Notes: a model not told the origin generated them from the sequence alone. Shown: positions 16,858 through 31,500, counted from the stretch's first letter. The stretch is DNA of 64,000 bases from an uncultured Chitinophaga sp. (GCA_964349045.1 CAYGFI010000001.1:17213-81212), one strand, 5' to 3'. A program made the numbers and translations.

Positions 16858-16867
16858 TTTTTATACT

Positions 16868-17478: not shown

Positions 17479-17592
17479 TTAACCTGATTTTTTATCATAT
17501 TTCCTCTTATAATTTAAGGGAGTATAACCCGTCATTTTATTAAATTGCTGGATGAAATGTGATACATTGGTAAACTTTAAATTATTTATTTG
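17479..17592 (-). pseudogene. Remnant of the C-terminal helix-turn-helix of an AraC-family regulator (37 codons between stops: 36 sense codons plus the terminal stop)
   Basis: Reverse-strand translation gives QINNLKFTNVSHFIQQFNKMTGYTPLNYKRKYDKKSG-stop. This matches the AraC tail pattern F.n.S.F...F.k..G.TP..Y. An in-frame stop lies immediately upstream (17593-17595), so only the tail survives. Confidence 0.5.
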
Positions 17593-17594
17593 TC

Positions 17595-18347
17595 ATGAAA
17601 TTACCAAACATTAATCGTTGAGATTTTCTAGTGAAGGCATCCGTTGGAGCTGCCTGTCTGGCTGTGGTCAACCCAACCCAGCTTTTAGCAGCAAGTGGAA
17701 GCAGAAAATCAATTTCCAAAAGTTCCAATGCCATAGATTATAAGATTGCGTACGGATGCTGGGTGAATGATATGCGGCTCGAACCGCTACCATTGGAGGA
17801 CTGGCCTGCACCTCAGATGGATGATGAGACTGTGAGAAGTGTCATTAAAGCAATGGATTTACAAAGTAAATACCATTACAACTGCCTAGATGCATGGGGT
17901 TTATTAGCAACAACCGCCTGGCCGCTAAACTTAGGTGAAGGGATTGATAATGAGCGCTTCACCGAGGCTGACAAGAAAGCGATAATTGAGCTTAGCAAGC
18001 ACATAGACGGCTTCTACGATCAAGGCTGGCACGGCACTTATATTCCTTCGGATGAAAGGGCAGCATTTATTAAGGAGCTGCATTGCACCTACAGAACATC
18101 CGGTGGTCGGTGGGTCTACCCTGGCCTGAGGTGGGATCGGGAGTCATTCTTCCTTCCTCATATGCAGCATCAGGCAACAGCCATTAAGGAACAGTTCGCC
18201 CAAGGGGCCCGGGGAATTATGCACTATCAGGGTCCGGTGAACAATCCCGGTAATATTTCAGGTTCCCGGAAACCTTTGATGAGGCATTCTATGTCTCCGA
18301 CTAAGACGGGACATTCAGCAGGATCCGCTGGCCTGTTTGTGGGATAG
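17595..18347 (+). pseudogene. Disrupted gene for a Tat-exported protein of unknown function (in-frame TGA in the RR motif; probable frameshift near the 3' end)
   Basis: The frame from ATG 17595 reads MKLPNINR-TGA-DFLVKASVGAACLAVV. The TGA at 17619-17621 sits where the second Arg of an RRDFL twin-arginine motif is expected (one step from CGA). The 238-aa ORF ends in a low-quality tail. A protein-like reading (VIVENMVPGIKSNIGFPFECWQNDNLQDW) continues in another frame to about 18510. Confidence 0.55.
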
Positions 18348-18672
18348 GATTACCCACAGGGGTACTGGACAAAAACCTGTTATTGTGGAAAATATGGTGC
18401 CCGGCATAAAATCAAATATAGGGTTTCCATTCGAATGTTGGCAGAATGATAATCTTCAGGACTGGAATTGCAGACCGACGCGTCTTTTGCTAGTGCTGCG
18501 ATAATCATGCTGAAAATTCCAGCTACATCATTGAAGGTTTCGGCTTAATCACCTAAGACATTGCCGGAAAGTACCTGTGAAATTTTCGGAATTTCAGCAG
18601 TACAAGTTGAAAAATCCTTTCTCTGTTATTAATTCTGTAATTTATTGTGTCTCTTCTTAAAAAGTAAAAAAA

Positions 18673-21147
18673 ATGTCAAATCGAAGAGAATTTATAAAAC
18701 AGGCTGCGGCAGCAGGAATGCTTGCCAGTATCCCGGAAGTTTTATTATCATCTGACTTTAAATCATTCAGCAATAATTACGATGCTCTCAAATCGAAGGA
18801 TGACACGACCGGAAAATCCAACAACATAGCTCCCCGGAAAAATGTTGGGGCTGTAATTGGCAGAGATTATTCCGGACGCCCGGTACTTGTCGTTGATGGC
18901 AAACCGGTTGCTATGATTGCCGGGCGTTTTGAGAGAAGGTATGATTCGGAACCAACCACAGCATCTTTGGATGCTTTCAGAAATGCCGGTTTACCACTGG
19001 TATTTGTCCCTGCTAACCTTGGCTTTTTCAACTCCAGATACCAAATTGACAATAACCTTCATGGAATTCCCACAAAAAACGGGAGTGAATTCTGGTGCGG
19101 ACCCGGAGACTACGACAGATCGCTCGTGGACAAGGCTCTGTCCCTTCCCTGTAAAGCTTACCCTGATGCAAAGATCATTGTCTGGCTTCTGATAGGGGAA
19201 TATCCCGAATTCGGGATCATGCATCCCGATGAAAGGATCCGGAACGATAAAGGTGAATCACTGATCGTTTCCACTCATTTCCTGCGATTTGATTCCATTG
19301 CACCAAGGGAAGCAAAGGAACATTACGCGATATCTTTCTTTTCGGAGCGATACAGGCAGGAATGCAAGGAAATGATTGCTGAATTCATAAAGACTGTGGA
19401 GTCAAGTCCATATGGCAATAATGTAGTGGGTTACCTCATCGGCGGCGGTCAAGATGCGCAGTTTTATGCATGGTCTCCACCGGACTGGAGTTTGCAGGAT
19501 ACGCCTAACAACTGGGGGGATTATTCCCTGCCTGCCAAAAAAGCTTTTACAAAATGGTTAGAAAAGAAATATGGGAGTATTGCTGCTTTGAATACGTCAT
19601 GGATGAGTGAACTCATATCCTTCGAACAGGTAACACCGCCGCCAGCTTCAGATCTGGCAGGAGAACAACCGTTTCATGATCCTGTAAAGGATCGTAAAGC
19701 TTATGATTGGAAGAGATTTCTTGCAGAGGGAAGGGCAGAATTTCTCGGGTATTTTGCTGAATTCATTAAAAAGAGTGCAAGTACAAATGTCATGGTTGGT
19801 GTTTCGGGGGGTGATGGCGGACACCGTCGTGATAACACATCTATCTCACAACTCCTCCGTTCTCCCTATATTGACTTTTTCTTACATCAGGCTACCTACG
19901 GTGTCAGAATTCCACCTTCCGTTGGTGGAATAAATGCTCTTTTGGATTCTTACACCGCAAACGGCAAATTATTTTTAACTGATATGGACCACAGGTTCTG
20001 GACTGGTGCAAAAATCGGGGACTGGAAGGAGGGGGTGATTTCAATTTCTGCCAGTGCGATGGGACAGGCGTCTGATATGTCCATGCAACGGGATATGTGG
20101 AGACGCGAGTTCTCCCGGCTCTGGGTCTCAGGGAACAATGGTGCATGGTTCAGCAACATGGGGCCTTCAGCACAATATGATAACATTGAAATCCAGAATG
20201 AACTGAGGCTGATTAATGATTTCTCAAATAGCCTGGTGAAGAGCCGCTGTGATACATCCCTTTCAATACAAAACCCGGTAAATTCCTGCGAAGTCGTCTT
20301 TGTTTTCGACGAGGCATCAGTGGATTATGCCAGAAAAGACCTTGGAGAATTCCACCAGGCAGGAATGCACCGCCAGTGGGCTGAAACAGGTGCTTCAGGC
20401 GTTCCGATCCGTTTTTATTATGCACAGGATCTCCGGGATGGCATTATCCCCCAGGCAAAACTCTATGTCCTTCAAAACCTGCTTGATATAGATGAAACTA
20501 TGGCCCGCAGGATCAAAGAGCTTCGAAAATCAGGGGCAACGATAATTCTGTTGCAGGGAACAGGAATGGTTCAGCTGGCTGGGGGCCGGTATAAACTATT
20601 GGATGATGCCTTGGGCATCAGGCTTCGCCCTGTGAACACAGCTGCCGGAAAAAATGACACAGGTAAATCCGGAATAATTGATACAATTCATCCGCTTCTG
20701 ACCGGTGACAGATGGAATCCCCGGATAACATCTTTTTCGAGTGAGCAGCTGAAGGAAGTTGATGGCTTATCCCTGACAGTTCAGGACAAGAAAGCTTCTT
20801 TTCTGGGCAGATATGAAATCTCAAAACTGCCCGCAATAGTTACAAAGAATCAGAAAAAGGGGGGAAGTGTGATTTTCATCGGAGCCTACACGCTTTCAAG
20901 AGACATGATCAGTCGGCTGGCTTCTTACGCCGGTGCATGGAGAGTGGCACCTCCTGGTAATGTTATTGCAGCCGACAGTCAGATCATGATGATCCATCCG
21001 CTCAGGGATGGCATAATCGAATTGGTACCAAAAGTTCCTTCCGCCTTGAGGCAAATGCCCCCGGGCGACATCTTCTCACCCAAAGCGGACATTCACAAAC
21101 TGGATCTTAAAGCAGGCACAACATATATGTTTAACGCGATAAAATGA
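18673..21147 (+). CDS. Tat-exported GH42-like (beta-galactosidase-like TIM barrel plus middle and C-terminal domains) protein, copy A
   Basis: Tat motif SNRREFIKQAAAAGMLA. YPEFGIMHPDERIRNDKGE and LPAKKAFTKWLEKKYGSIAALNTSW resemble GH42 N-domain stretches. CEVVFVFDEASVDYA resembles the GH42 middle domain. It is full-length homologous to the 25672-28137 product. Confidence 0.6.
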   Translation: MSNRREFIKQAAAAGMLASIPEVLLSSDFKSFSNNYDALKSKDDTTGKSNNIAPRKNVGAVIGRDYSGRPVLVVDGKPVAMIAGRFERRYDSEPTTASLDAFRNAGLPLVFVPANLGFFNSRYQIDNNLHGIPTKNGSEFWCGPGDYDRSLVDKALSLPCKAYPDAKIIVWLLIGEYPEFGIMHPDERIRNDKGESLIVSTHFLRFDSIAPREAKEHYAISFFSERYRQECKEMIAEFIKTVESSPYGNNVVGYLIGGGQDAQFYAWSPPDWSLQDTPNNWGDYSLPAKKAFTKWLEKKYGSIAALNTSWMSELISFEQVTPPPASDLAGEQPFHDPVKDRKAYDWKRFLAEGRAEFLGYFAEFIKKSASTNVMVGVSGGDGGHRRDNTSISQLLRSPYIDFFLHQATYGVRIPPSVGGINALLDSYTANGKLFLTDMDHRFWTGAKIGDWKEGVISISASAMGQASDMSMQRDMWRREFSRLWVSGNNGAWFSNMGPSAQYDNIEIQNELRLINDFSNSLVKSRCDTSLSIQNPVNSCEVVFVFDEASVDYARKDLGEFHQAGMHRQWAETGASGVPIRFYYAQDLRDGIIPQAKLYVLQNLLDIDETMARRIKELRKSGATIILLQGTGMVQLAGGRYKLLDDALGIRLRPVNTAAGKNDTGKSGIIDTIHPLLTGDRWNPRITSFSSEQLKEVDGLSLTVQDKKASFLGRYEISKLPAIVTKNQKKGGSVIFIGAYTLSRDMISRLASYAGAWRVAPPGNVIAADSQIMMIHPLRDGIIELVPKVPSALRQMPPGDIFSPKADIHKLDLKAGTTYMFNAIK

Positions 21148-21153
21148 GGTCTT

Positions 21154-23313
21154 ATGAAGCAAAAGAAAATCAATCGCCGGAAGTTTATCAGGACAACCGG
21201 GATATTGGGTGGCATGGCTGCCTTTACCCATTTTAGTATTTACGGAAGAGAGTCCGTGAAAAGTACAGGTAAGGAATTTTTTATCCATGTATCGCCAAAT
21301 GGCCAGGATCGCTGGAAGGGTCGTCTGGCTGATCCGGACAGGAAGGGAGAGGAGGGTCCTGTTCTGAGCCTGGAGCGTGCCCGTGATCTGGCACACGCGG
21401 CCCGGCTGGCTGAACCTGACAGGCCGGTGACCGTATTGCTGCATCCGGGGGTTTATCGCCGGAGCGGACCAATTATTCTGGATGCCGCCGATAGCGGTAC
21501 AGCAGGGGCGCCTGTAACCTGGCGTGCTGCAAAGGATTCTGTTCCTGTTATCACAGGATTGAAGCCGCTGCCTTCATCCTGGGTTTCAAATGGCGACGGG
21601 TCATGGAAGATGTTAATGAAAGATGTTTCAGGTATTCCGGAAACTTTTCGTCAGCTTTTCTGCAATGGTCTGCGTCTTTCACGGACGCGCTGGCCGGCAG
21701 AGGGATATCATACGGTTTATAGTTTTGCCGGGGAAAGCGAACAGGAGAAAAAGCAAAGTTTTCGCTACCTGGAAGGAGATGTGAAACGCTGGTCTAATTT
21801 TGAGGATGTTGAATTTGTCATTTTTCACAGCTGGAGTGAATCACGTTTGTTCCCGAAAGAGCTGGACGAGAAAGAACGGCGGATAACATTTACCCAGCAG
21901 GCGGCTTATCCGTTCGATTTTCAAGGTTGGAATTCTTACTACCTGGAGAATGTCAGGGAGGCTCTGACCGGGCCGGGGCAATGGTATCATGACAGAAACG
22001 AGGGCGTTTTGTATATGCGTCCCCCTGCCGGGGTCTCTGATCCGAACAAGGCTGAATTTGCTGTACCGGTTGCTGATGCCCTGCTGGAACTTCGTGGTTC
22101 TGAAAGTGATCCTGTCCGTCATATTCAATTTGAGGGGATTCATTTCACCGGTACCCGCTGGCAGATGTCACCAACCGGCTATGCCAACGGAGGTGGCTCC
22201 ACAGGTCCTCATGTACGCCCTGCAGCAATTACTTTTGAGCATGCTGAAGATTGTATTTTGCATAAGTGTTTGCTGGAGGCATCAGCTGGTTATTTCGTTG
22301 AATTAAACCAATGTCTTCGTTGCCGGGTATTACGCACAACCATTCGTGAGGCTGGCAGCGGCGGAATTATTTTTTCCAATGGAGCAGACAACGAGGTGGC
22401 CGATTGTCACATTCACCATTGCGGCCGTCTTTATTTCGGCGGCACGGGGGTGGTCAATCCCACCGGTTTACGCACCCACATTCATCACAACCATATCCAT
22501 GATATGCCTTACTGTGGTATACGTGGCGGTGATTGGCGTATTGAGTTGAATGAAATCTTTGAATACAACCATATTCATCATGTAATGCTTGTTCTCGATG
22601 ATGGGGCAGGTATTTTTAATGCCGGCATTGGCAGTATCTTCCGCAACAATCTGGTTCATGACTGTGTCGGCGGGCGACACAAATTTGCACTGGGGCTTTA
22701 TCTGGATCATTACCGCACCGGTGTGCTGATGGAGAATAATGTGGTTTACAACACGGGCAGGGAATTATTGCATCTGCACGACAATTATGGAAACACTTTT
22801 GTAAATAATATTTTTGCCTTCGGTGGTGCGGCTCAGTTAAGCTGGACAAGATTTCACGGCACAACTTTTGGCCGGCGTAATGAGCCCTACCGTCATTCTT
22901 TGCAAACTTTTCAACGTAATATTGTTTACTGGCGTGAAGGCTGCCTGTCCCATAATATGGACTGTAACCGATGGGACCTGGCATCGCAACCGGAATTGAT
23001 TGATTATAACATTTACTGGAAGGATGGTAAAAAAGATCTTGAGGTGCCGGGGCTTGGCCGGATTCCGGCAAATGAAGTCCGGTTTGGCCGTGGACATGTT
23101 TCGCAGCCCGGTGTTGGTCATGACACCTTTGCCGACTGGCAGGGGTTGGGATTGGATCGTCATTCACTCAATCAGGATCCTTTGTTTGTGGATCCCGATA
23201 ATGGAGATTTCCGTCTGCGTGAGGATTCCCCGGCTTTCGCCCTTGGTATTAAGCCGATCGATTTGAGCGGGGTGGGTATCCGTGTGCCGGATGCATCTGA
23301 CAGGAAAGAATAA
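21154..23313 (+). CDS. Tat-exported right-handed beta-helix protein, tandem copy B
   Basis: Tat motif INRRKFIRTTGILGGMAAF. It has the same beta-helix motif set as 3214-5259 (CHIHHCG, HNHIHDMPYCGIRGGDW, YNHIHHVM, RNNLVHD, NNIFAFG, DPLFVDPDNGDFRL). GC-rich (39/60 in line 21301-21360). It starts 6 nt after the stop of copy A. Confidence 0.8.
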   Translation: MKQKKINRRKFIRTTGILGGMAAFTHFSIYGRESVKSTGKEFFIHVSPNGQDRWKGRLADPDRKGEEGPVLSLERARDLAHAARLAEPDRPVTVLLHPGVYRRSGPIILDAADSGTAGAPVTWRAAKDSVPVITGLKPLPSSWVSNGDGSWKMLMKDVSGIPETFRQLFCNGLRLSRTRWPAEGYHTVYSFAGESEQEKKQSFRYLEGDVKRWSNFEDVEFVIFHSWSESRLFPKELDEKERRITFTQQAAYPFDFQGWNSYYLENVREALTGPGQWYHDRNEGVLYMRPPAGVSDPNKAEFAVPVADALLELRGSESDPVRHIQFEGIHFTGTRWQMSPTGYANGGGSTGPHVRPAAITFEHAEDCILHKCLLEASAGYFVELNQCLRCRVLRTTIREAGSGGIIFSNGADNEVADCHIHHCGRLYFGGTGVVNPTGLRTHIHHNHIHDMPYCGIRGGDWRIELNEIFEYNHIHHVMLVLDDGAGIFNAGIGSIFRNNLVHDCVGGRHKFALGLYLDHYRTGVLMENNVVYNTGRELLHLHDNYGNTFVNNIFAFGGAAQLSWTRFHGTTFGRRNEPYRHSLQTFQRNIVYWREGCLSHNMDCNRWDLASQPELIDYNIYWKDGKKDLEVPGLGRIPANEVRFGRGHVSQPGVGHDTFADWQGLGLDRHSLNQDPLFVDPDNGDFRLREDSPAFALGIKPIDLSGVGIRVPDASDRKE

Positions 23314-23345
23314 ATACAATTCATGCTAATTAAAAAGCTAAACTT

Positions 23346-25484
23346 ATGAACCAAAAGAAATACAATCGCCGGAAGTTTATCAGGACCACCGGTATTTTTG
23401 GTGGCATGGCTGTTTTAACCAATTTTGGTATTTATGGAAGAGAATCCGTAACAAGTACCGGCAAGGAGTTTTTTATCCATGTATCGCCCCAGGGACAGGA
23501 TCGCTGGCAGGGTCGTTTGGCTACTCCGGACAGGCGGGGAGAGGAGGGGCCTGTTATGAGTCTGGAGCGTGCGCGTGATCTGGCGCGCCTGGCCCGGCAG
23601 GCTGAACCAGCAAGGGCTGTGACGGTTTTGCTGCATCCGGGGGTTTATCGCCGGAGCGAACCGCTTATTCTGGATGTCGCCGATAGTGGTACTGCAGGGG
23701 CGCCTGTAGCCTGGCGTGCTGCAAAGGATTCTGTTCCTGTTATCACAGGATTGAAGCCGCTGCCTTCATCCTGGGTTTCCAATGGCGACGGGTCATGGAA
23801 ACTCTTAATGAGTGATGTTTCAGGTTTTCCGGTAACTTTTCGTCAGCTTTTCTGCAATGGCCAGCGCCTCTCCCGGACTCGCTGGCCGGCGCAGGGATAT
23901 AAATCAGTATATAGTTTTGCCGGGGAGAGCGATCAGGAACGGAAGCAAAGTTTTCGATACATGGAAGGAGATGTGAAACGCTGGTCGAATTTTGAGGATG
24001 TTGAATTTGTTATTTTTCACAGCTGGAGTGAATCCCGTTTGTTTCCGAAAGAGCTGGACGAGAAAGAACGGCGGATAACTTTTACCCGTCAGGCGGCTTA
24101 TCCGTTCGATTTTACAGGATGGAATTCTTACTATGTTGAGAATGTCAGGGAAGCTCTGACTGATCCGGGACAGTGGTACCATGACAGAAGTGAAGGTGTT
24201 TTGTATATGCGTCCCCCTGCCGGGGTCTCTGATCCGAACAAGGCTGAATTTTCTGTAGCGGTTGCCGATGGTCTGCTGGAGCTTCGCGGTTCTGAAAGCA
24301 ATCATATCCATCATGTTCAGCTTGAAGGTATTCATTTCACCGGTACCCGCTGGCAGATGGGACCAACCGGTTATGCCAACGGGGGAGGTGCCGGAGGTCC
24401 TCACGTACGCCCTGCGGCAATTACTATTGAGAATGCTGAAGATTGCGTTCTGCATAATTGTTTACTGGAGGCAACAGCGGGTTATTCAGTGGAACTAAGC
24501 CAATGTGATCGTTGCGTGGTCTCTCGCACGACCATCCGTGAGGCCGGCAGTGGTGGTGTCATTCTTTTCGGAGGAGCAGACAACGAGGTGGCGGATTGTC
24601 ACATTCATCATTGCGGCTGTCTTTATTTCGGTGGCACGGGGGTGGTCAATCCCACCGGTTTACGCACCCACATTCATCACAACCATATCCATGATATGCC
24701 TTACTGTGGTATACGTGGCGGTGATTGGCGTATTGAGTTGAATGAAATCTTTGAATACAACCATATTCATCATGTAATGCTTGTTCTCGATGATGGGGCA
24801 GGTATTTTTAATGCCGGCATTGGCAGTATCATCCGCAATAATCTGGTTCATGACTGTGCAGGCGGGCGACACAAATTTGCATTTGGGCTATATCTGGATG
24901 AGTACCGCACCGGTGTGCTGCTTGAAAACAATGTGGTTTACAACGCCGGAAGTGAATTATTACTTTTACATGACAATTACGGGAACACGATTGTCAATAA
25001 TATCTTTGCCTTTGGCGGTAATGCGCAGTTGAGCTGGACTGTATTTCACGGTACTACTTTTGGCAGGCGCATGATGACATATCGCCATCCGCTGCAAACA
25101 TTTCAGCGTAATATCGTTTACTGGCATAAAGGCTGCCTGTCCCACAATCTTGATTGTAACAGGTTGGATCTGGCCTCAAAACCGGAATTGATTGATTATA
25201 ACATTTACTGGAAGGATGGTAAAGAAGATCTTGAAGTACCGGGACTTGGCCGGATTCCGGCAAATGAAGTCCGGTTTGGCCGTGGACATGTTTCGCAGCC
25301 CGGTGTTGGTCATGACACCTTTGCCGACTGGCAGGGGTTGGGATTGGATCGTCATTCACTCAATCAGGATCCAATGTTTGTGGATCCCGATAATGGAGAT
25401 TTCCGTCTGCGTGAGAATTCTCCGGCTTTTGCCCTTGGAATTAAGCCAATCGATGTGAGCGGGGTAGGGCCGCGTAAGATATAG
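23346..25484 (+). CDS. Tat-exported right-handed beta-helix protein, tandem copy B'
   Basis: Tat motif YNRRKFIRTTGIFGGMAVL. Colinear with 21154-23313 at an offset of exactly 2192 nt, and contains stretches of 198 and 128 identical nucleotides. Confidence 0.8.
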   Translation: MNQKKYNRRKFIRTTGIFGGMAVLTNFGIYGRESVTSTGKEFFIHVSPQGQDRWQGRLATPDRRGEEGPVMSLERARDLARLARQAEPARAVTVLLHPGVYRRSEPLILDVADSGTAGAPVAWRAAKDSVPVITGLKPLPSSWVSNGDGSWKLLMSDVSGFPVTFRQLFCNGQRLSRTRWPAQGYKSVYSFAGESDQERKQSFRYMEGDVKRWSNFEDVEFVIFHSWSESRLFPKELDEKERRITFTRQAAYPFDFTGWNSYYVENVREALTDPGQWYHDRSEGVLYMRPPAGVSDPNKAEFSVAVADGLLELRGSESNHIHHVQLEGIHFTGTRWQMGPTGYANGGGAGGPHVRPAAITIENAEDCVLHNCLLEATAGYSVELSQCDRCVVSRTTIREAGSGGVILFGGADNEVADCHIHHCGCLYFGGTGVVNPTGLRTHIHHNHIHDMPYCGIRGGDWRIELNEIFEYNHIHHVMLVLDDGAGIFNAGIGSIIRNNLVHDCAGGRHKFAFGLYLDEYRTGVLLENNVVYNAGSELLLLHDNYGNTIVNNIFAFGGNAQLSWTVFHGTTFGRRMMTYRHPLQTFQRNIVYWHKGCLSHNLDCNRLDLASKPELIDYNIYWKDGKEDLEVPGLGRIPANEVRFGRGHVSQPGVGHDTFADWQGLGLDRHSLNQDPMFVDPDNGDFRLRENSPAFALGIKPIDVSGVGPRKI

Positions 25485-25671
25485 ACTTTGCTACCAATAT
25501 TTTGTCCCTACGGATTTAAATATCGGTAGAATTAAAAAGCAACTCCTATTCAGTAAAGTTCCGTAGGAACGTAATAAATAAAGCAATTCTGGTAAAATCT
25601 TTAATTTTTTTATGGACACCAGTGATACTAATAATAAAACTAAACATCCCTTTAAAATAAATTTTGTTGTG

Positions 25672-28137
25672 ATGAAACAAAAAAATCTCGATCGACGGAT
25701 GTTTATTAAGACCACCGGTATCTATGGCAGCATGGCTATTCTGGCAAATACCGGTATTTCCGGATACTTTGCTGGTTGTAGTAATGAAACACCTACGCAC
25801 GTGAAACCCATCTGGGAGGATCCACCCATAGAAGAGGTTCCTCCGTTGACCGAAGAATTGCTGCAACGCATCAGGAATCAACCTGTTCCGGCAGCTGAAT
25901 TGGTTCAACACTCTAATGGTGCCACTCAGTTGTCAATCAATGGTAATGTAAAACCATTTTTGTTTGGAACGGAGGTTTACTGGACCCCCCGGGAAAATTT
26001 ACAGATTGGTGTGTGGAAGCAAGCTGGTATTGAAATACTTATTATTCCTATGAACCTTGGATTTGCACGTGAACGGCAGGGTAGCAATGTTAACGCCATC
26101 AAGTATCAGAAATCTTTTTGGGATGGAGCAGGTAAATATACTCATCACGAAGAAATTGAAGAAGTTCTCTGGCGCGTTCTTCGTGTGTATCCTGATGCCA
26201 AATTGCTGCTTTGGACCTTTATTCAGGCCTATCCTGAATGGGACCAGGAAAATCCTGATGAAATAATGCGAAATGATAAAGGTGTTCCATTTATTGTAAC
26301 CAGTTATTTCCAGCGTGTAGGAAATGATCCTGATTATTCAAAAGGAGAAACCCGTGCATGGTCATTTTTTTCAGAAAAATTTCGTGCTGATGTCAATGCC
26401 ATGCTCACGGAATTTATAACAACTGTAGAAAATAGCATTCCTGGCCGGTCGGTAATCGGGTATATGCTGGGTGGAGGTGTGGATGCACAATTTTATTTTT
26501 GGCAACCACCTAACCCTATTCGCCAGAAGGATCCTGATTTATGGGGTGATTTCAGCCTTCCTGCCATCAGGGCATGGCGCCGCTGGCTTAAGAAGAAATA
26601 TGTCACGATTGACAAACTGCGTACAAACTGGAACATACCCGTTGTATCGTTTGATAAGGCAGAACCACCCGGAGCAGCTGATTTGATTGGCAGTGATATT
26701 TTTCATGATCCGGGTAAGGAGCAACGCGCCATCGATTGGAAACGATTTATTGCTGAAGGGCGGGTGGATCTGATATGTGATCTGGCACGAACTGTTCGTA
26801 AAGCTTCTACCAGAAAAATTATTGTCGGGTCCTCAGGCGGTGAAAGTGCAAGTCGCAGTGATCTCACTGCAAATGCCTTACTTATCCAGTCACCTGAAAT
26901 TGACTTTCTTTTCCACCAGGCCGGTTATGGTGACCGTTTGCCTCCTTCTGCAGGCGGGATTAATGCGGTCCTTCATTCCCATCAGCTCCATGGTAAACAA
27001 TTTATCAGCGATAACGATCACCGGACCTGGCTTGTCAAGCCCACAGAAGGAGCCACTAAAATTGGCACAGGGGTTTCTTTTACTGATAACACTGTTGGCC
27101 GGGCTTCCGACATTGACCAGTACCGTGCCATGCTGCGTCGTGAACTTGGACGGATCTGGACAGCAGGTCTTGGTGCTCACTTCTTTAATCATTCTGCTCC
27201 CTGGACCTACAACGATGATAAGCTTATTGGAGAACTGACCCAACTCCGGAAGACCGCGGAAACCCTTCTGCCGCCCTCTCCATGGCATCCTGCTGCAGAA
27301 GTAGCTGTTATATACGATGAATGTTCCATTGATTATCTGAAAGGAGGTCTTCAAAATCTTCACAGTGTCTGGGCCAGGCAGCAGCGCACTGAACTGGATT
27401 CCTCCGGTGTTCCTTATTCCAGATATTATACAGCTGATTTACGTGCCGGAAAAATCCCGGAAGCCAGGCTTTACATTTTTGTAAACCAGTTAAACCTCGA
27501 TAATGAACTAATTACCCAGATCAATCGTCTTAAAAAGGAACAGGCTACCCTGGTATTTCTGCAAAGCACCGGTTTTGCCCAGGTAAAAAGTAATTTTTCT
27601 GAAATTACCGATACCCTGGGAATGCAGGTTCTTCACCACATAGAGGCAAGGAAGAAGTCTTCAACAATACCGGTAACTGCTACTCATCCTTTAAGAGCTT
27701 CAGCAGATTCCAACCATCAATCCCTGGATTTGGAATCACAATCTGCACTGGTAATTACGGATCCTGATGCAGAGATTCTTGCGTATTATCCGGAGACCGA
27801 ACTTGCCGGATTTGGTATTAAAAAACACGAAGACTGGTCGGCTGTATTTGTTGGCACACACTTATTGAATCGTCAGACCATTCATGCACTGGCAGAGTTT
27901 ACAGGTGCTTACCGTCTTTCTTCGTCAGGTTACGGCGTGGCTGCTGATGATAACCTATTGATGATTCATCCCCTGCAATCTGGTTCTGTTACCGTCATCA
28001 TGCCTCACCCTGCTGCTTTACGGGAAGTACCTCCTGGTTCGATTAATACGGATTTTTCTTCTCAACATAAGCTCAGGCTTAAGGCAGGGACAACCTATCT
28101 TTTCAGGCTGGAGAAGAAAGGCGGGCAAACTTCCTGA
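25672..28137 (+). CDS. Tat-exported GH42-like protein, copy A'
   Basis: ORF 25612-28137. The ATG at 25672 gives MKQKNLDRRMFIKTTGIYGSMAILA (Tat motif). Colinear with 18673-21147 (YPEWDQENPDEIMRNDKG, LPAIRAWRRWLKKKYVTIDKLRTNW, AEVAVIYDECSIDYL). Confidence 0.6.
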   Translation: MKQKNLDRRMFIKTTGIYGSMAILANTGISGYFAGCSNETPTHVKPIWEDPPIEEVPPLTEELLQRIRNQPVPAAELVQHSNGATQLSINGNVKPFLFGTEVYWTPRENLQIGVWKQAGIEILIIPMNLGFARERQGSNVNAIKYQKSFWDGAGKYTHHEEIEEVLWRVLRVYPDAKLLLWTFIQAYPEWDQENPDEIMRNDKGVPFIVTSYFQRVGNDPDYSKGETRAWSFFSEKFRADVNAMLTEFITTVENSIPGRSVIGYMLGGGVDAQFYFWQPPNPIRQKDPDLWGDFSLPAIRAWRRWLKKKYVTIDKLRTNWNIPVVSFDKAEPPGAADLIGSDIFHDPGKEQRAIDWKRFIAEGRVDLICDLARTVRKASTRKIIVGSSGGESASRSDLTANALLIQSPEIDFLFHQAGYGDRLPPSAGGINAVLHSHQLHGKQFISDNDHRTWLVKPTEGATKIGTGVSFTDNTVGRASDIDQYRAMLRRELGRIWTAGLGAHFFNHSAPWTYNDDKLIGELTQLRKTAETLLPPSPWHPAAEVAVIYDECSIDYLKGGLQNLHSVWARQQRTELDSSGVPYSRYYTADLRAGKIPEARLYIFVNQLNLDNELITQINRLKKEQATLVFLQSTGFAQVKSNFSEITDTLGMQVLHHIEARKKSSTIPVTATHPLRASADSNHQSLDLESQSALVITDPDAEILAYYPETELAGFGIKKHEDWSAVFVGTHLLNRQTIHALAEFTGAYRLSSSGYGVAADDNLLMIHPLQSGSVTVIMPHPAALREVPPGSINTDFSSQHKLRLKAGTTYLFRLEKKGGQTS

Positions 28138-28200
28138 GAAGCAAAACATGCCAGCGGGCTATTCATTTTCCATAATGATTTCCACTGATATGGTGTTGAT

Positions 28201-30174
28201 TCAGTTGGATGCCCGGTATAATCCAACAACTTCGGTGGTCATCAGAAACCGGTCATAAATTCTAAGATTTGTCATCTGCTTATTTGCCAGTTGCCAAGTT
28301 GAAGCGCCGTTTGCATCGCCAAAATCATGACTGAACCAGACTGTACCACGTTCCTTTGTTTTCCCGCCGTCCTGAAATTCCCCATTGATGACTATACTGA
28401 CCAGTTTGGGGTAGCCGTCAACGATAATGGAAATATCATGAGTTTTGGAAGGGTTGAGAATATTTTCGTTACTGGTCAGGGTGACTGTTTCTTTTCCATC
28501 GCTCATCGTGAACACCAGGGTATGATCCGCTGTAAGCTCTGCTTTCACTCCTTTTTTGTTGTGGAATGCATCGATGAGAACGATGGTCCCTGTTGTTTTC
28601 CCTTTGGCGGCTTCTGGTTGAGGTAACAGACGAAAACAGATTGAAAATCCTCCATTTTCACCTGGTGAAGGCAGAATGGGTGCAGGAATTTTTGATTTGG
28701 GTTTTGCAAGATGTATTAGCAGACCGGTTTCCGGAACGCCGGAGATTTTGAACTGCTGGCTCAGGAGGTCAAAAAATGGTTCGGGGACAGGAAACGTCTT
28801 TACGTATTCCTTATCACTGATACGTCCGATAATACCATCGGGTCCTGCACCAAATTCGGGAGTGTTCAGTCTTTCATGGGAATGATTATCGTAGCCGAGT
28901 TGATCTTTCCGGTAATGAACCAATTCCGGTTCAGAAAAGTAGAACTGATTGTTCCGCGTTTCCATATAAGCAATATAAACGAGATCACGGCCGGAGAAAT
29001 CATCAAATCCCTGAACACTATTATTATAGTAAACGAAAAATTTACGACCCTTGGGGTCGGAGGGGAATCCGTATGGTCCCTGGGGGCTTTTAACAGGCCT
29101 GCCGTCAGGGGAATAGCGCAATATGTCTGTTTTCCAGGTCTGTCCCTGGTCATTGCTTCGTGCCAGTCCGATGAATCCATAAACTGTCCGGTGGTGAAAA
29201 CACCAGTGGTCATCTTCCATGATTAGCGGAGAAAAACCACCGGCAGATGAATATTCAAGGTGGGTAATACCACGTTTATCATTTGGAAGCAATTCAATTT
29301 CGAGGGTTTCTAGGCGATCATTGTTTGCGTAATTTTTAAAAAGCAGAAAAAATGCTTCGCCGTTGCCGCAACGAGGGATAGGCCCGTGTTTGGTAATCCA
29401 CGTAAGCCCGTCGTCGCCCATCATTCGGTGCGGTATGGGATAACTCCAGCTTACGAAGTATTTTCCTTTAAAAAGTGTTGAACGATCAATATCGGCTACG
29501 GGTACTGGCAGCTCATATCGTTCGGAGAATTCTCCTTCCTTACTGACATATCTGAACATCACTTTACCTACCAGATGCGGGTAACAGCGGAACGGTTCCC
29601 CTTCATGCCAGCCAAGGAATGTGGCTATATCAAGAAAATCAGTAGGCTCTTTGCTGTAGTGCATATCCTCGTCAGGTCCCCGGAAGTACATAAAATAAAC
29701 CTGGTCGGTAGTAGGATGACGGAAGAACGACCCATAGGTGGTGAGTGGAGGGCCTTCCGGTTCAAGTTCGAACCAGTCACTCCAGGTTTGGCCTCCGTCA
29801 GTTGAACGTCTGATGATAATATGCTGGCTGGGATGGCCTTCGCGACTTCTGGCCACTGTCAGGGTTCGTAAATGCACTTTGTCAGTAACTTTGTAAGTCG
29901 AAAATCCTTCCATATAACCGTATCCTTCCGGTAGGGTTCCTCCGGTCAAGCCCACAACTGGGTCACCATTTTCAAAAGCCCGCCAGTCGTCCATGCCAAA
30001 CGAAGGAGGAAACACATATGGATTCCGGGGTATCTCCTCATCTGAAATATTTTTAAGGGCGCTGTCAGATGTTACATTTAACCAACCTGCTGAATTGCGG
30101 GAAGGATCATTAAAATTTCCTGCCGATAAAGCAACTCCTGAAATGAGCAAAAGGGATAGGATATTTGTATTCAT
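28201..30174 (-). CDS. BNR/Asp-box beta-propeller plus C-terminal LamG-like domain protein (sialidase/trans-sialidase-like architecture)
   Basis: Start taken at the ATG giving MNTNILSLLLISGVALSA, because the upstream GTG lies inside the IS terminal repeat. Asp-boxes are STDGGQTWS and SNDQGQTWK. The C-terminal ...LVSIVINGEFQDGG...LRIYDRFLMTTEVVGLYRA is a LamG_3-like ending. Paralog of 61028-62899. Confidence 0.7.
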   Translation of the reverse strand: MNTNILSLLLISGVALSAGNFNDPSRNSAGWLNVTSDSALKNISDEEIPRNPYVFPPSFGMDDWRAFENGDPVVGLTGGTLPEGYGYMEGFSTYKVTDKVHLRTLTVARSREGHPSQHIIIRRSTDGGQTWSDWFELEPEGPPLTTYGSFFRHPTTDQVYFMYFRGPDEDMHYSKEPTDFLDIATFLGWHEGEPFRCYPHLVGKVMFRYVSKEGEFSERYELPVPVADIDRSTLFKGKYFVSWSYPIPHRMMGDDGLTWITKHGPIPRCGNGEAFFLLFKNYANNDRLETLEIELLPNDKRGITHLEYSSAGGFSPLIMEDDHWCFHHRTVYGFIGLARSNDQGQTWKTDILRYSPDGRPVKSPQGPYGFPSDPKGRKFFVYYNNSVQGFDDFSGRDLVYIAYMETRNNQFYFSEPELVHYRKDQLGYDNHSHERLNTPEFGAGPDGIIGRISDKEYVKTFPVPEPFFDLLSQQFKISGVPETGLLIHLAKPKSKIPAPILPSPGENGGFSICFRLLPQPEAAKGKTTGTIVLIDAFHNKKGVKAELTADHTLVFTMSDGKETVTLTSNENILNPSKTHDISIIVDGYPKLVSIVINGEFQDGGKTKERGTVWFSHDFGDANGASTWQLANKQMTNLRIYDRFLMTTEVVGLYRASN

Positions 30175-30176
30175 AA

Positions 30177-31493
30177 TCACTAGTGTCCGATTAAATCCAG
30201 CTGATTTTCAGCTGTTTATTATATAGTTCTTTGACGTCTTTGTAATTCTGATTTGTAAGTAATTCATTTATAGGCGTTTTGTCAAGTAGAGATATGCTTA
30301 ATATTTGTAATATTTCGTAGGTTGAGCGGTCAACTTTCAATTTGTTACGAACTAATGCAACCAGACAGTATGCAATTATTGCAGAGTAAACCTGTATTTT
30401 GACTGCATTCAGACTCGTTCCCCAAAATGATTTAATTTTTAAATGCTGTTTTATCCATTTGAAAAATAGTTCAACTTTCCATCGGTATTTATAAAGTTGT
30501 GCTATTTCTTCTGATGCTAAACCAAAGTTGTTGGATAAAAAATCAAGTTCGTTATTCGTTTCTTCGTCGTAAAATTTAACCCGACGAAGCTTTTGCGGAT
30601 ACTTTTTGGAGACATAAAATCCAGTCAATGTTCCGATTTGGTCGAGCAAAACGCCATTCTTCTTATTTACTTTATTTGAATATACTCTTTGGAACTGAAG
30701 ATTACCTTTCGCTCTTATTACGAAGAAGGCCGAGCATTGATTTATTTTAAAAAGTCTTGCATAATCAACATATCCACGATCGAAAATGTAATAACTTCCT
30801 GGTTCATAATACAATAAATCCATAGCATTCATGTCATTCATTGATGCTGCAGAAACATGAATAAAATTAGGAATGGAAGTCTTTACATCATACAAGGTAT
30901 GCAACTTGATTCCTCCCTTAGTTTTACGGAATTCAGCCCACCAGAAAATATTCAAACAAAGATCAATGGTTGTTGAATAAAATGCATAAATATTACCATT
31001 TATATTCAACTGAAAGTCTTGATCAACTATTGAGGATTGTCTTGCTTGATCGATGAGATAGTATGCAAAATCTTCAAAAATTCTACAGTCTCTTTTCTCA
31101 TTTGAGTTTGCAAAGTTTGATCTTGAGGTTCCCTTACCAAATCCAAGGTGATAATACTTGGGTTCATGAGGCTCAATACTAATCATTAGATCTCGTAAGC
31201 TATCTCTACCGGTCAGTTGGCCAAATATCATACAGAGCAATTGGTTCCAGCAGGAAAAGTGTCTAACATGCTTATTACCATTGTATTTATCAACCAACCC
31301 ATCGAAAATACGTTTTGGAAGAAAATCTGTAAGTTGTGAACAGACAAATTTACCTTTATTCATGGGTTCCAGCTTTTCACAAAGCTAAAAACCAACTTTT
31401 CAATTCAAATCGACACGCAACAAAAATGCTCTACATGTCAGAAATATCAAAGGTTTCAAAGAACGTTATATAAATTTAATCGGACACTTGTGA
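30177..31493 (-). mobile_element. IS4-family insertion sequence, about 1.3 kb, with 20-bp terminal inverted repeats
   Basis: Left end 30177-30196 is tcactagtgtccgattaaat. The reverse complement of 31474-31493 is tcacaagtgtccgattaaat (19/20 match). A single transposase ORF lies inside. I could not find a direct target-site duplication in the flanks (..ttcataa versus ctcaact..). Confidence 0.8.
30191..31363 (-). CDS. IS4-family DDE transposase (DUF4372-type N-terminus)
   Basis: 390 aa. The N-terminal CSQLTDFLPKRIFDGLVDKYNGNKHVRHFSCWNQLLCMIFGQLTGRDSLRDL is typical of DUF4372-containing IS4 transposases of Bacteroidota. The central FDRGYVDY and C-terminal YKYRWKVELFFKWIKQHLKIKSFWG are DDE_Tnp_1-like. 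Confidence 0.88.
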   Translation of the reverse strand: MNKGKFVCSQLTDFLPKRIFDGLVDKYNGNKHVRHFSCWNQLLCMIFGQLTGRDSLRDLMISIEPHEPKYYHLGFGKGTSRSNFANSNEKRDCRIFEDFAYYLIDQARQSSIVDQDFQLNINGNIYAFYSTTIDLCLNIFWWAEFRKTKGGIKLHTLYDVKTSIPNFIHVSAASMNDMNAMDLLYYEPGSYYIFDRGYVDYARLFKINQCSAFFVIRAKGNLQFQRVYSNKVNKKNGVLLDQIGTLTGFYVSKKYPQKLRRVKFYDEETNNELDFLSNNFGLASEEIAQLYKYRWKVELFFKWIKQHLKIKSFWGTSLNAVKIQVYSAIIAYCLVALVRNKLKVDRSTYEILQILSISLLDKTPINELLTNQNYKDVKELYNKQLKISWI

Positions 31494-31500
31494 CTCAACT

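What the first reader, a model, noticed from the sequence alone, without database searches (positions are those of the whole stretch)
17595..30176. About 12.6 kb GC-rich block bounded by gene debris on the left and an IS without target duplication on the right
The block has clearly higher GC than its flanks.
- Inside the block: 39/60 GC at 21301-21360 and 35/60 at 29041-29100.
- Background genes: 23/60 at 51061-51120 and 20/60 at 61081-61140.

The left edge coincides to the nucleotide with the point where an AraC-family tail remnant (17479-17592) is cut off and a Tat-signal gene begins (17595). The right edge is the start codon of 28201-30174, which abuts the terminal repeat of an IS4-family element at 30177.

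Five of the six genes in the block (one of them decayed) start with twin-arginine motifs, whereas almost all flanking genes use Sec or lipoprotein signals. Together this looks like a horizontally acquired cassette inserted into a native glycan locus, possibly by an IS-mediated event.
Basis: partly seen in the sequence, partly recalled or inferred. Interest (0 to 1): 0.7.

Follow-up and report, generated by a model that had tools for sequence, protein, structure and literature searches.

The report
Patchwork GC-rich glycan-enzyme gene block
The GC-rich stretch is real, but it is a patchwork of enzyme genes gained, duplicated, broken and swapped at different times in a sugar-degrading locus of an uncultured Bacteroidales-like bacterium, and only its right-hand 6 kb is tied to the insertion sequence, so it is an instructive but ordinary case of gene turnover.

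Summary
GC change points fall at about 17,640 and 30,040 (0.468 inside, 0.418 in the rest of the window). The AraC tail, four intact and one broken twin-arginine (Tat) leaders, and an IS4 element with 20-nt inverted repeats and no target duplication are all present.

The one-cassette interpretation fails. Three comparators split the block into modules:
- **Distant relative.** A Bacteroidales MAG (flank proteins 70-84% identical) joins the GDSL esterase directly to the 1535-aa T9SS protein.
- **Closer relative (L039).** It has an intact 2-hydroxyacid dehydrogenase operon, then GH42-like and GH141a-like genes at the same position. The core (18359-25499) is therefore older than that split, and the left-edge debris is later decay.
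- **Closest relative (L046, about 96% nt; four independent runs).** It lacks 25500-31492 (GH42b, BNR/LamG gene, IS). The homology break lies exactly at the IS terminus.

The tandem GH141-like genes nest, with 100% NJ bootstrap, inside a clade of proteins that lack signal peptides. Members whose contigs were read lie on 60-63% GC DNA (Anaerolineae MAG, 67% identity). Their 93-nt Tat leader is homologous to that of the unrelated GH42b.

Codon usage is host-like, so the acquisitions are old. Interest is modest.

The parts
12279..13703 (-). GDSL-type esterase (DUF4815 + Lipase_GDSL_2) with a Tat motif (TRREALK). It is the left conserved anchor of the variable zone.
   Evidence: Pfam families in the gene list. 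Motif. It is 71% identical in Bacteroidales MAG L015, where it lies next to the T9SS gene, and 76% identical in L039.
13835..15199 (-). GH29 alpha-L-fucosidase. It is shared with relative L039 and absent at this place in L015.
   Evidence: Alpha_L_fucos family. 91-92% aa and 85% nt identity to L039. No orthologue between GDSL and T9SS in L015.
15265..16857 (-). GH20 hexosaminidase.
   Evidence: Pfam families. blastn gap in L039. Joint 15151->16900 in run X22. Its 74% homologues lie in unrelated contexts.
16868..17305 (-). Truncated D-2-hydroxyacid dehydrogenase. Only the C-terminal ~145 codons of a ~335-aa gene remain.
   Evidence: 2-Hacid_dh_C profile positions 85-178 only. The gene is intact at 335 aa in L039, with 89% nt identity over 16900-17276.
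17345..17427 (.). An 83-nt stretch homologous to the intergenic DNA between RraA and the 769-aa GH141-like gene of L039. It is what remains after loss of the dehydrogenase 5' half, MR_MLE and RraA.
   Evidence: blastn: L039 7197-7279, 85.5%.
17479..17592 (-). C-terminal tail (37 codons) of an AraC-family regulator, cut off at 17592.
   Evidence: HTH_18, HTH_AraC, ChbR and TIGR04094 C-terminal matches. Similarity ends at a stop codon. Absent from relative R: depth 0 in X21 and X22.
17595..18347 (+). Decayed gene of an uncharacterised ~510-aa Tat-signal protein family. It has TGA in the RR motif, an internal loss of about 130 codons, and no 3' third.
   Evidence: Sequence. phmmer: P0215 at 52%, matched in two stretches, with the best stretch at query 91-207 against protein 247-363 of 513. 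Other hits align the N-terminal third of the query to the start of ~450-aa proteins. Homologues carry Tat leaders and have no Pfam family.
18359..18469 (+). Remnant of the 3' end of a 769-aa GH141-like gene that is intact in L039.
   Evidence: blastn: L039 9559-9669, 85.6%. Compare the translation with the L039 protein.
18673..21147 (+). GH42a: an 824-aa distant GH42-like protein with a Tat leader (MSNRREFIKQ). It is a recombinant mosaic.
   Evidence: PF02449 at E = 1.4e-8. PDB beta-galactosidases match only over residues 279-375. In 50-residue windows from ~196 to ~533 it is 91-100% identical to P0130 on another low-GC contig (78% for 146-195). Residues 779-824 are 96% identical to L039, against 56% overall.
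21154..23313 (+). GH141a: a 719-aa right-handed beta-helix, GH141-like protein with a Tat leader.
   Evidence: Beta_helix; GH141_M at 24.9 bits, below its cut-off of 27. PDB 9rx2 at E = 9e-56 and BT_1002 (5mqp) at E = 8e-19. 67% identity to the Anaerolineae MAG protein. Tree.
23346..25484 (+). GH141b: a tandem duplicate of GH141a (88% nt identity, 2192-nt period).
   Evidence: L046 is 95.7% identical over 22693-25499.
25488..25499 (+). The first 12 nt of a GH42a-like 3' remnant. The remnant continues for 157 nt in L046, and the window diverges after 25499.
   Evidence: Alignment A2. blastn. Joint 25498->20977 in X21 and X22.
25500..31493 (.). Module M3 (5,994 bp): GH42b, the BNR/LamG gene and IS4. 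It is present here and in the same-species samples. In the closest relatives 221 bp stand in its place, and the right limit equals the IS terminus.
   Evidence: L046. Depth 0 over 25708-30047 plus joints in X21 and X22. Joint 21126->31494 in RNA run X26 and the L046 spacer as a loose end in X28.
25672..28137 (+). GH42b: a distant GH42-like protein, 38% identical to GH42a. The Tat leader starts at ATG 25672; the ORF is open from 25612.
   Evidence: The closest hit among retrieved proteins is 45% (P0183, on a 61% GC contig).
28201..30174 (-). BNR/sialidase-like + LamG protein with a Sec signal, convergent with GH42b. Its ATG lies 2 nt from the IS.
   Evidence: Laminin_G_3 weak hit. Best homologues are 54-56% identical low-GC Bacteroidota paralogues; the Anaerolineae homologue is 43%.
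30177..31493 (-). IS4-family insertion sequence, 1317 bp, GC 0.33, transposase at 30191-31363. Inverted repeats are 20 nt (19/20) and there is no target duplication.
   Evidence: NF033592 at 251 bits against a cut-off of 115; DUF4372 + DDE_Tnp_1. Inverted repeats. Closest plasmid copies are in Bacteroidota at 53-59%. A relative has a 9-bp duplication.
31501..36108 (-). 1535-aa GH141-like beta-helix protein with a T9SS sorting tail. It is the right conserved anchor. Its stop codon lies 7 nt from the IS.
   Evidence: 81% identity in L015, adjacent to GDSL there. 96.5% nt identity in L046 from 31493 onward.
21154..21246 (+). The 93-nt Tat-leader module. It is repeated at 23346-23438 and 25672-25764 in front of unrelated mature proteins.
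   Evidence: Family D2: 86% and 74% identity. Alignment A4. The 31-nt core pattern occurs only at these three sites, with 0 expected by chance.

Best explanation
The GC-rich stretch is an accretion zone, not a cassette. It lies between two conserved anchor genes, the GDSL esterase (12279-13703) and the 1535-aa T9SS beta-helix protein (31501-36108). These sit in a fucosidase/rhamnosidase/sulfatase locus of an uncultured, ~40% GC Bacteroidales-like bacterium. Modules of different age and origin have piled up between the anchors.

**(1) Older core, 18359-25499.** It holds GH42a and the tandem pair GH141a/GH141b. It was already at this position in the common ancestor with a related organism.
- GH141a/b descend from an enzyme of the signal-less, cytoplasmic type. 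That type is found on 60-63% GC contigs, one of them an Anaerolineae MAG (Chloroflexota).
- After transfer the gene received a 93-nt Tat leader, which is homologous to the leader of the unrelated GH42b. This redirected the enzyme to the periplasm. It was then duplicated.

**(2) Module M3, 25500-31493.** It holds GH42b, the BNR/LamG gene and IS4.
- It entered inside a GH42 3' remnant and replaced 221 bp.
- Its right joint is the IS terminus. This explains why the IS has no target duplication.
- The likely route is IS-mediated adjacent rearrangement or recombination between two IS copies.

**(3) Left-edge debris.** A later deletion and replacement removed about 5 kb: the 5' half of the 2-hydroxyacid dehydrogenase gene, MR_MLE, RraA and most of a 769-aa GH141-like gene. 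It left 0.93 kb of fragments, namely the AraC tail and a dead Tat gene.

**Why the GC is raised.** These families come from higher-GC lineages (about 51-62% GC). They have only partly ameliorated, and codon choice is already host-like.

**Shown versus inferred.** Shown here: the comparator structures, the breakpoints, the phylogeny and the leader homology. Inferred: the direction of each event, the IS mechanism and the export route.
For: **Distant relative.** L015 (Bacteroidales MAG, 1-Mb contig) has rham-GDSL directly followed by the T9SS gene, with flank proteins 70-84% identical.

**Closer relative.** L039, L040 and L041 have rham 86%, GDSL 76%, fucosidase 92%, and an intact 2-Hacid_dh-MR_MLE-RraA set. 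These are followed by GH141-769, a Tat-leader GH42, and the start of a GH141a-type gene (89% over 97 aa, same leader). blastn maps window 17345-17427, 18359-18469 and 18559-18888 onto L039.

**Closest relative.**
- L046 is 95.7% identical over 22693-25499. It then has a 157-nt GH42a-like remnant, then window 31493 onward at 96.5%.
- The same joints appear in independently assembled contigs of X21 and X22, with zero depth over 25708-30047.
- They also appear in metatranscriptome runs: a joint in X26 and the L046 spacer as a loose end in X28.
- The window keeps 12 nt of the remnant.
- In X21 and X22 the L039-type and L046-type contigs have equal depth (5.7 against 5.6; 8.75 against 7.9), so they are probably one genome.

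**GH141 phylogeny.** The block copies group with P0003-5 to the exclusion of P0006-7, and all of these group apart from the low-GC Bacteroidota clade that holds the window's own paralogue 3214-5259 (47%). NJ bootstrap is 100%. The contigs of P0003 and P0005 are 60-63% GC, the proteins lack signal peptides, and one contig is an Anaerolineae MAG.

**Leader homology.**

**GH42 relatives.** They come from a 51% GC contig that carries a prepilin-type N_methyl gene and a 61% GC contig. Named hits are Lentisphaerota and Verrucomicrobiota.

**IS.** No target duplication here, against a 9-bp duplication in a related IS.
Against: - **Comparators.** All are metagenome contigs or MAGs. L046 is only 3.2 kb. 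The link between L039 and L046 rests on equal depth alone.
- **Polarity of M3.** Insertion here rather than loss there rests on the 12-nt shared remnant. In a distant MAG (L014, ~50% identity) a BNR/LamG gene follows the T9SS gene, as it does in the window, which could mean that adjacency is old.
- **GH42a.** It has a 79% homologue with the same Tat leader on another low-GC contig. Its foreign origin is therefore less clear than for GH141a/b.
- **Age.** Codon usage gives no signal, and 67% identity to the nearest Anaerolineae protein means the transfer is ancient. The donor is known only at clade level.
- **Phylogeny method.** The tree is neighbour-joining on 21 sequences.
- **Export.** Tat export is inferred from motifs only.
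Confidence: 0.7

Rival explanations
1. One ~12.6-kb foreign cassette (17595-30176) was inserted in a single, possibly IS-mediated, event into a native locus, cutting an AraC gene on the left.
For: GC change points coincide with the proposed edges. The AraC tail is truncated exactly at 17592. The IS has no target duplication. The whole region is absent from L015.
Against: - L039 carries GH42-like followed by GH141a-like genes at the same place, with a different and intact left neighbourhood.
- L046, X21, X22 and X26 carry GH141a/b but lack 25500-31492.
- Block genes have different nearest relatives: Anaerolineae for GH141a/b, PVC-like for GH42a, and Bacteroidota for the BNR/LamG gene.
- There is no coherent codon usage, no tRNA, no integrase and no bounding direct repeats.
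Confidence: 0.04
2. The genes are native and vertically inherited. Their higher GC reflects amino-acid composition and family-specific constraints. The differences from L015, L039 and L046 are deletions in those lineages.
For: - Synonymous codon usage is host-like, and the GC shift is no larger at third positions.
- Conserved native flank genes such as GDSL are also 0.46-0.49 GC with a Tat leader in all three relatives.
- GH42a-type Tat proteins occur on other low-GC contigs, where they are also GC-elevated.
Against: - GH141a/b are nested inside a clade of proteins that lack signal peptides, with 100% bootstrap. The clade members whose contigs were read (P0003, P0005) lie on 60-63% GC DNA. GH141a/b are 67% identical to those proteins but only 47% identical to the genome's own paralogue.
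- The BNR/LamG gene is 0.46 GC, while its paralogue on the same contig is 0.39.
- The window retains only 12 nt of a remnant that is complete in L046. That fits insertion here, not deletion there.
Confidence: 0.12
3. This rival concerns the right module only. GH42b, the BNR/LamG gene and the T9SS gene are the ancestral arrangement. The IS merely dropped into the spacer, and the L046-type genomes lost 25500-30176 by deletion.
For: A distant MAG (L014) has a BNR/LamG homologue (51%) directly downstream of the T9SS homologue (49%). Freshwater runs X7 and X17 hold M3-like DNA at 90-95%.
Against: - The homology break with L046 is exactly at the IS terminus, not at a gene boundary.
- L046 holds 221 bp (the rest of the remnant plus a spacer) that the window lacks. 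That DNA is GH42a-like, not GH42b-like.
- The IS lacks the 9-bp duplication expected of a simple insertion.
Confidence: 0.12

Closest known systems
Horizontally acquired CAZyme clusters in Bacteroidota polysaccharide-utilisation regions (from my own knowledge: the porphyranase/agarase genes of marine origin in gut Bacteroides plebeius)
   Same: Glycan-degrading genes of foreign ancestry sit inside a native degradative locus. They are compositionally distinct, variably present among relatives, and have a mobile element at one edge.
   Different: There is no integrative conjugative element, integrase, tRNA site or SusC/SusD pair in the window. The region is a multi-step mosaic of several origins rather than one transferred unit. 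The best-supported donor clade is Chloroflexota-like, not another Bacteroidota, and the transfer is old (67% aa identity, host-like codon usage).
IS4-family insertion sequences of Bacteroidota, and IS-mediated adjacent rearrangement or IS-IS recombination
   Same: DDE_Tnp_1 transposase with DUF4372 and 20-nt terminal inverted repeats. The transposase is 53-59% identical to IS4 copies on Arenibacter, Bacteroides and Parabacteroides plasmids. One terminus is a novel joint relative to close relatives.
   Different: There is no target duplication, although a related copy has 9 bp. Only one copy is present, so this is not a composite transposon. A surrogate second end at 25500 is not supported (p ~ 0.11).
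GH141 family (BT_1002 alpha-L-fucosidase; XynE endoxylanase, PMC5593877; endo-fucanases, PMC12786026)
   Same: Right-handed beta-helix with the GH141 insertion domain, and sequence matches to PDB 5mqp and 9rx2. Genomic company with GH29 fucosidase and sulfatases resembles loci that degrade fucose-containing sulfated polysaccharides.
   Different: Similarity to BT_1002 is low (E = 8e-19 over the N-terminal half). No activity or catalytic residues were tested. The proteins carry a Tat leader, while their closest relatives have no signal peptide at all.
Twin-arginine (Tat) signal peptides
   Same: N-terminal [ST/N]RR[KE]F[IL][KR] followed by a hydrophobic stretch, on four intact genes.
   Different: The same 93-nt leader-coding module is shared by unrelated mature proteins. 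This points to leader exchange by recombination rather than independent evolution. Export was not tested.

Membership tests
Genomic island (single horizontally acquired unit) | Composition deviates from the host | tested here: met
   GC is 0.468 against 0.418, with change points at 17,640 and 30,040. Codon usage, however, is not deviant.
Genomic island (single horizontally acquired unit) | Present or absent as one unit, with the same breakpoints, among relatives | tested here: not met
   L015 lacks 13704-31500. L039 has the core with a different left side. L046, X21 and X22 lack only 25500-31492.
Genomic island (single horizontally acquired unit) | Integration machinery or signature: integrase, tRNA target, bounding direct repeats | tested here: not met
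   No tRNA genes. No bounding direct repeats. No integrase among the Pfam hits. The only mobility gene is one IS4 transposase.
IS4-family insertion sequence | DDE transposase of the IS4 type | tested here: met
   NF033592 at 250.8 bits against a cut-off of 115. PF01609 and PF14294 also match.
IS4-family insertion sequence | Terminal inverted repeats | tested here: met
   30177-30196 and 31474-31493, 19/20 complementary.
IS4-family insertion sequence | Target-site duplication flanking the element | tested here: not met
   The flanks are TATTCATAA and CTCAACTTT. A related copy shows a 9-bp TTTTACAAA duplication. The element itself is an IS; this copy is not a simple insertion.
Composite transposon / one-ended (ISEcp1-like) mobilisation unit | A second IS copy or a recognisable surrogate end at the other boundary | tested here: not met
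   There is a single IS copy in the window. The gapped resemblance at 25500 scores no better than 11% of random positions.
Canonical Bacteroidota PUL | Adjacent SusC-like TonB-dependent transporter and SusD-like genes | tested here: not met
   No Plug, TonB_dep_Rec or SusD families were found among the ORFs of the window that were scanned. The 707-aa and 579-aa ORFs at 41367-45186 have no Pfam hit.
GH141 | Beta-helix with the GH141 insertion domain, and similarity to BT_1002 | tested here: met
   PF21231 gives 27.3 bits for GH141b (cut-off 27) and 24.9 for GH141a. PF13229 also matches. PDB 5mqp at E = 7.6e-19 and 9rx2 at E = 9.4e-56.
GH141 | Catalytic residues and glycosidase activity | not tested
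   No residue mapping or assay was done here.
GH42 | Full-length match to the GH42 catalytic TIM barrel | tested here: inconclusive
   PF02449 matches only profile positions 145-229 of 376 (35 and 26 bits). PDB hits cover residues 279-375 only. The proteins are best called GH42-like.
Tat substrates | Twin-arginine consensus in the n-region followed by an h-region | tested here: met
   SNRREFIK, INRRKFIR, YNRRKFIR and LDRRMFIK, each followed by a hydrophobic stretch.
Tat substrates | Tat-dependent export; tatA/tatC present in the genome | not testable with these tools
   The window holds no tat genes and the rest of the genome is not available.

The most novel reading that the evidence does not exclude
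In this lineage a short module, in one case the 93-nt Tat-leader coding stretch and in others a promoter plus its first codons, moves by recombination between unrelated glycoside-hydrolase genes of one regulon. The move would convert enzymes captured from other phyla into periplasmic Tat substrates. The example here is a signal-less, cytoplasmic Chloroflexota-type GH141. This would be a general route for fitting foreign cytoplasmic CAZymes into a diderm's extracytoplasmic degradation pathway.
Probability: 0.3. Interest if true: 0.55.

Novelty: new member of a known kind. Interest (0 to 1): 0.3.

Why it matters
**For the scan.** A clean GC step with gene debris on one side and an IS on the other can look like a single island and still be the sum of several events of different ages. 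Only comparison with graded relatives separates them.

**Biologically.**
- The locus shows a Chloroflexota-type GH141 enzyme recruited into a Bacteroidota glycan locus. GH141 is a family now tied to fucoidan and fucan breakdown (PMC12786026).
- The enzyme was fitted with a Tat leader that it shares with an unrelated neighbour.
- It also shows how fast the gene content between two conserved anchor genes turns over. There are at least four indels between organisms whose flank genes are 83-96% identical.

These are useful examples of CAZyme locus evolution in uncultured freshwater and sediment Bacteroidota. They are not a new kind of system.

Tried and rejected
- **Codon usage as evidence of foreignness.** Leave-one-out synonymous log-likelihoods do not separate block from flanks.
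- **Surrogate IS end at 25500.** TGTCC..GATTTAAAT resembles the inverted repeat, but 11% of random positions score as well.
- **Co-transfer of RraA and MR_MLE with GH141 from Anaerolineae.** The adjacency is seen in both L005 and L039. However, the L039 MR_MLE is only 28% identical and RraA has no hit.
- **Metagenome scan with the GH20 protein.** The aim was a relative with an intact AraC or dehydrogenase neighbourhood. Homologues at 74% lie in unrelated contexts.
- **Cluster-member look-up for organism names.** None were carried.
- **Logan contig breaks at 17565-17573 in X1 and X2.** They were first read as a strain polymorphism at the left edge. Depth is uniform across the break and no alternative path was seen.
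- **Searching runs with the L046 junction itself.** The joint was confirmed instead by laying X21, X22 and X26 on the window.
- **tRNA genes and bounding direct repeats.** None were found.
- **Decayed gene as a diverged copy of the 769-aa GH141-like gene.** Rejected. It belongs to a different ~510-aa family.

Full report

Yes.
- A two-change-point likelihood fit over 12-38 kb places the GC steps at 17,640 and 30,040 (0.411 / 0.470 / 0.402). 17595-30176 is the most GC-rich 12.6-kb stretch of the window, at 0.468 against 0.418 for the rest.
- Gene by gene, the six block ORFs have GC 0.45-0.50. Most others have 0.35-0.44. Mann-Whitney gives p = 0.005, and a run of six genes has permutation p = 0.016.

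Two qualifications apply.
- Other genes in the window are as rich or richer: 12279-13703 (0.49), 49679-50875 (0.52), 50985-53984 (0.54) and 59205-60773 (0.51).
- The shift is about equal at codon positions 1, 2 and 3, and synonymous codon usage does not distinguish the block.

The individual features also check out.
- The AraC tail is genuine. Three AraC-type models match their extreme C-termini, and the similarity stops at 17592.
- 17595 starts a gene whose Tat motif carries TGA in place of the second arginine.
- Four further genes have intact RR motifs, and the sixth has a Sec signal. One flank gene, GDSL, also has a Tat motif.
- The IS is 30177-31493, IS4 family (NF033592 at 251 bits), with 19/20 inverted repeats and flanks that are not a duplication.
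- A related IS4 copy on a Parabacteroides plasmid has a clear 9-bp duplication. The absence here is therefore informative.
- Depth is even across block and flanks in two runs. A 99.9% identical contig from another sample has the same structure, so this is not a chimera.

**2. What the genes are**

The window is a glycan-degradation region of a ~40% GC bacterium with T9SS-sorted proteins. It encodes GH78 rhamnosidase, GH29 fucosidase, GH20, several sulfatases, several BNR/LamG and GH141-like beta-helix proteins, and an SSF transporter. No SusC/SusD pair was detected.

Inside the block:
- a decayed gene of an uncharacterised ~510-aa Tat-protein family, with a nonsense codon, an internal loss of about 130 codons and a 3' truncation;
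- GH42a and GH42b, distant GH42-like proteins only 38% identical to each other;
- GH141a and GH141b, a tandem duplicate at 88% nt identity that matches PDB 9rx2 and BT_1002;
- on the other strand, a BNR/LamG gene.

GH141 members are known as an alpha-L-fucosidase, an endoxylanase and endo-fucanases, and are common in fucoidan degraders (PMC5593877, PMC12786026). A sulfated, fucose- and rhamnose-containing polysaccharide is therefore the likely substrate. This is an inference.

**3. Relatives break the block into modules**

(a) **L015**, a 1-Mb contig of an uncultured Bacteroidales MAG. Its flank proteins are 70-84% identical to those of the window. Its order is ...GH141(flank)-AP-rham-GDSL followed directly by the 1535-aa T9SS gene. 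Everything from 13704 to 31500 is absent there.

(b) **L039, L040 and L041**, which are closer (rham 86%, GDSL 76%, fucosidase 92%).
- After the fucosidase they carry an intact 335-aa 2-hydroxyacid dehydrogenase, MR_MLE and RraA.
- On the other strand they carry a 769-aa GH141-like gene, a Tat-leader GH42 gene, and the first 97 codons of a GH141a-type gene with the same leader (89% aa). The contig then ends in the tandem repeat.
- blastn shows that window 17345-17427, 18359-18469 (a remnant of the 769-aa gene's 3' end) and 18559-18888 are collinear with L039.
- Hence the GC-rich plus-strand genes were already at this position before the two organisms split.
- The window's left edge is a later loss of about 5 kb, with 0.93 kb of unrelated fragments in its place: the AraC tail and the dead Tat gene, which are absent from those samples.
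- GH20 (15203-16899) is a further indel.

(c) **L046**, the closest (95.7% nt over 22693-25499).
- GH141b is followed by a 157-nt GH42a-like 3' remnant and a 76-nt spacer. Window 31493 onward then follows at 96.5%.
- The window shares the first 12 nt of that remnant and then diverges at 25500.
- On the right, the homology resumes exactly at the IS terminus.
- The same two joints occur in independently assembled contigs of runs X21 and X22, where depth over 25708-30047 is zero. They also occur in a freshwater metatranscriptome.
- In X21 and X22 the L039-type and L046-type contigs have the same depth, so they are probably one genome. This is an inference.

So 25500-31493 (GH42b, the BNR/LamG gene and the IS; 5,994 bp) is a separate module that replaced 221 bp, with the IS end as one of its two joints.

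**4. Origins**

- **GH141a/b.** The nearest proteins outside the host clade are 59-68% identical and lack any signal peptide. P0003 and P0005 lie on 60-63% GC contigs with ABC-transporter neighbourhoods, and one contig is an Anaerolineae MAG. The window's own paralogue 3214-5259 and its Bacteroidota relatives are only 46-48% identical. In a neighbour-joining tree the block copies sit inside the high-GC clade with 100% bootstrap.
- **GH42a.** Relatives at 61-67% come from a 51% GC contig that carries a prepilin-type N_methyl gene and from Lentisphaerota. A 79% homologue with the same Tat leader sits on another low-GC contig. GH42a is itself a mosaic of that allele and the L039 allele.
- **GH42b.** Its best retrieved relative is 45% identical, on a 61% GC contig.
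- **BNR/LamG gene.** It is closest (54-56%) to low-GC Bacteroidota paralogues, one of them on the window's own contig. Even so, it is more GC-rich than they are, at 0.46 against 0.39-0.43.
- **IS.** It is a Bacteroidota-type element.

The block therefore has several sources. Host-like codon usage says that none of the distant acquisitions is recent.

**5. The Tat leaders**

- The first 93 nt of GH141a, GH141b and GH42b are homologous at the DNA level (74-86%). The 31-nt core occurs nowhere else in the window, with 0 expected by chance. The mature proteins are unrelated folds.
- The nearest GH141 relatives have no signal peptide, and the nearest GH42b relatives have Sec-type signals.
- In L039 the upstream region and the first six codons (MSNRRK) are shared between the 769-aa GH141-like gene and the GH42 gene.
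- A contig in run X6 shares 25559-25786 and then diverges.

The simplest reading is that leader or promoter modules are exchanged by recombination among genes of the locus, and that this is how the foreign GH141 became a Tat substrate. This is an inference, and export was not tested.

**6. Mechanism at the IS**

A simple insertion would leave a 9-bp duplication of the L046-type target (CTCAACTTT). Instead, the left flank is the start codon region of the BNR/LamG gene. Two routes fit:
- an intramolecular, IS-mediated adjacent deletion after a larger insertion; or
- recombination between two copies of the IS with different neighbours.

The data do not decide between them. A surrogate second end at 25500 is not supported.

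The IS now sits between the stop codon of the T9SS gene (7 nt away) and the ATG of the BNR/LamG gene (2 nt away), in the same orientation as both. The downstream gene can therefore only be transcribed from within or through the IS. This is an inference.

**7. Verdict**

- The thing is a gene-turnover hot spot in a glycan-degradation locus. It has an old, partly ameliorated core of foreign glycoside-hydrolase genes, a younger IS-associated 6-kb module, and decay at the left edge.
- This is a known kind of genome dynamics.
- The Tat-leader sharing and the Chloroflexota-to-Bacteroidota origin of the GH141 pair are the points worth keeping.

Noticed in passing
window 49679-53984: Two minus-strand genes have a much stronger GC anomaly than the block, at 0.52 and 0.54 (up to 0.60 per kb, GC3 0.54-0.61). 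One is a 398-aa BNR protein. The other is a 999-aa T9SS-sorted protein with a BT_1020-like beta-propeller and a sialidase-like CBM. They are a better candidate for a recent foreign acquisition.
   Followed up: no
window 18673-21147 (GH42a) vs L028 and L039: GH42a is a recombinant mosaic. Residues ~196-533 are 91-100% identical to a homologue on an unrelated low-GC contig (L028; 78% for 146-195, 79% overall). The last 46 residues are 96% identical to the L039 allele (56% overall). L039 and L028 are in turn 84-98% identical over residues 534-778.
   Followed up: partly
L039 7442-7576 and 9912-9980; window 18559-18695: In the relative, the upstream region plus the first six codons (MSNRRK) are shared by a 769-aa GH141-like gene and the GH42 gene. 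The former then continues as a Sec-type signal. This is a promoter/leader module duplicated in front of different genes.
   Followed up: partly
window 25559-25786 (run X6): A sediment-metagenome contig matches the GH42b upstream region and Tat leader with one mismatch, then runs on into unrelated sequence after 25786. The same promoter/leader appears to be attached to another gene there.
   Followed up: no
window 12279-13703 and 9539-12217: The conserved flank gene GDSL has a Tat motif (TRREALK) and GC 0.49 in this genome and in both relatives. The rhamnosidase begins with a Tat-like NRRESLFLK. Tat leaders are therefore not confined to the block.
   Followed up: partly
window 6421-9510 vs L015: Relative to the Bacteroidales MAG, the SSF transporter gene is inverted and relocated. 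Sulfatase 6421-7896 has no close counterpart at this position there. This shows further rearrangement left of the block.
   Followed up: no
window 17559-17573: Logan contigs of two runs of one sample both break here, ending at 17565 and restarting at 17559 or 17573, in an AT-rich stretch inside the AraC tail. Depth is even on both sides and the cause is unknown.
   Followed up: partly
L050 (Parabacteroides distasonis plasmid NZ_OY725783.1) 258-297 / 1574-1613: A related IS4 copy (transposase 53% identical) sits in the loop of a hairpin-like palindrome with a 9-bp duplication TTTTACAAA. This hints that the IS subgroup may target terminator-like hairpins. The window's copy also lies just after a stop codon.
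   Followed up: no
window 36145-41173: Two adjacent paralogous MacB/FtsX-type permease genes (815 and 814 aa) lie directly upstream of the T9SS beta-helix gene. No partner ATPase was seen among the ORFs scanned.
   Followed up: no
window 13000-32900 (RNA runs X26-X28): Freshwater metatranscriptome contigs, mostly 95-99% identical, cover the fucosidase, GH42a, GH141a/b, GH42b and the T9SS gene. Relatives therefore appear to transcribe these genes in nature. Nothing was laid on 17648-18311, the decayed gene.
   Followed up: partly
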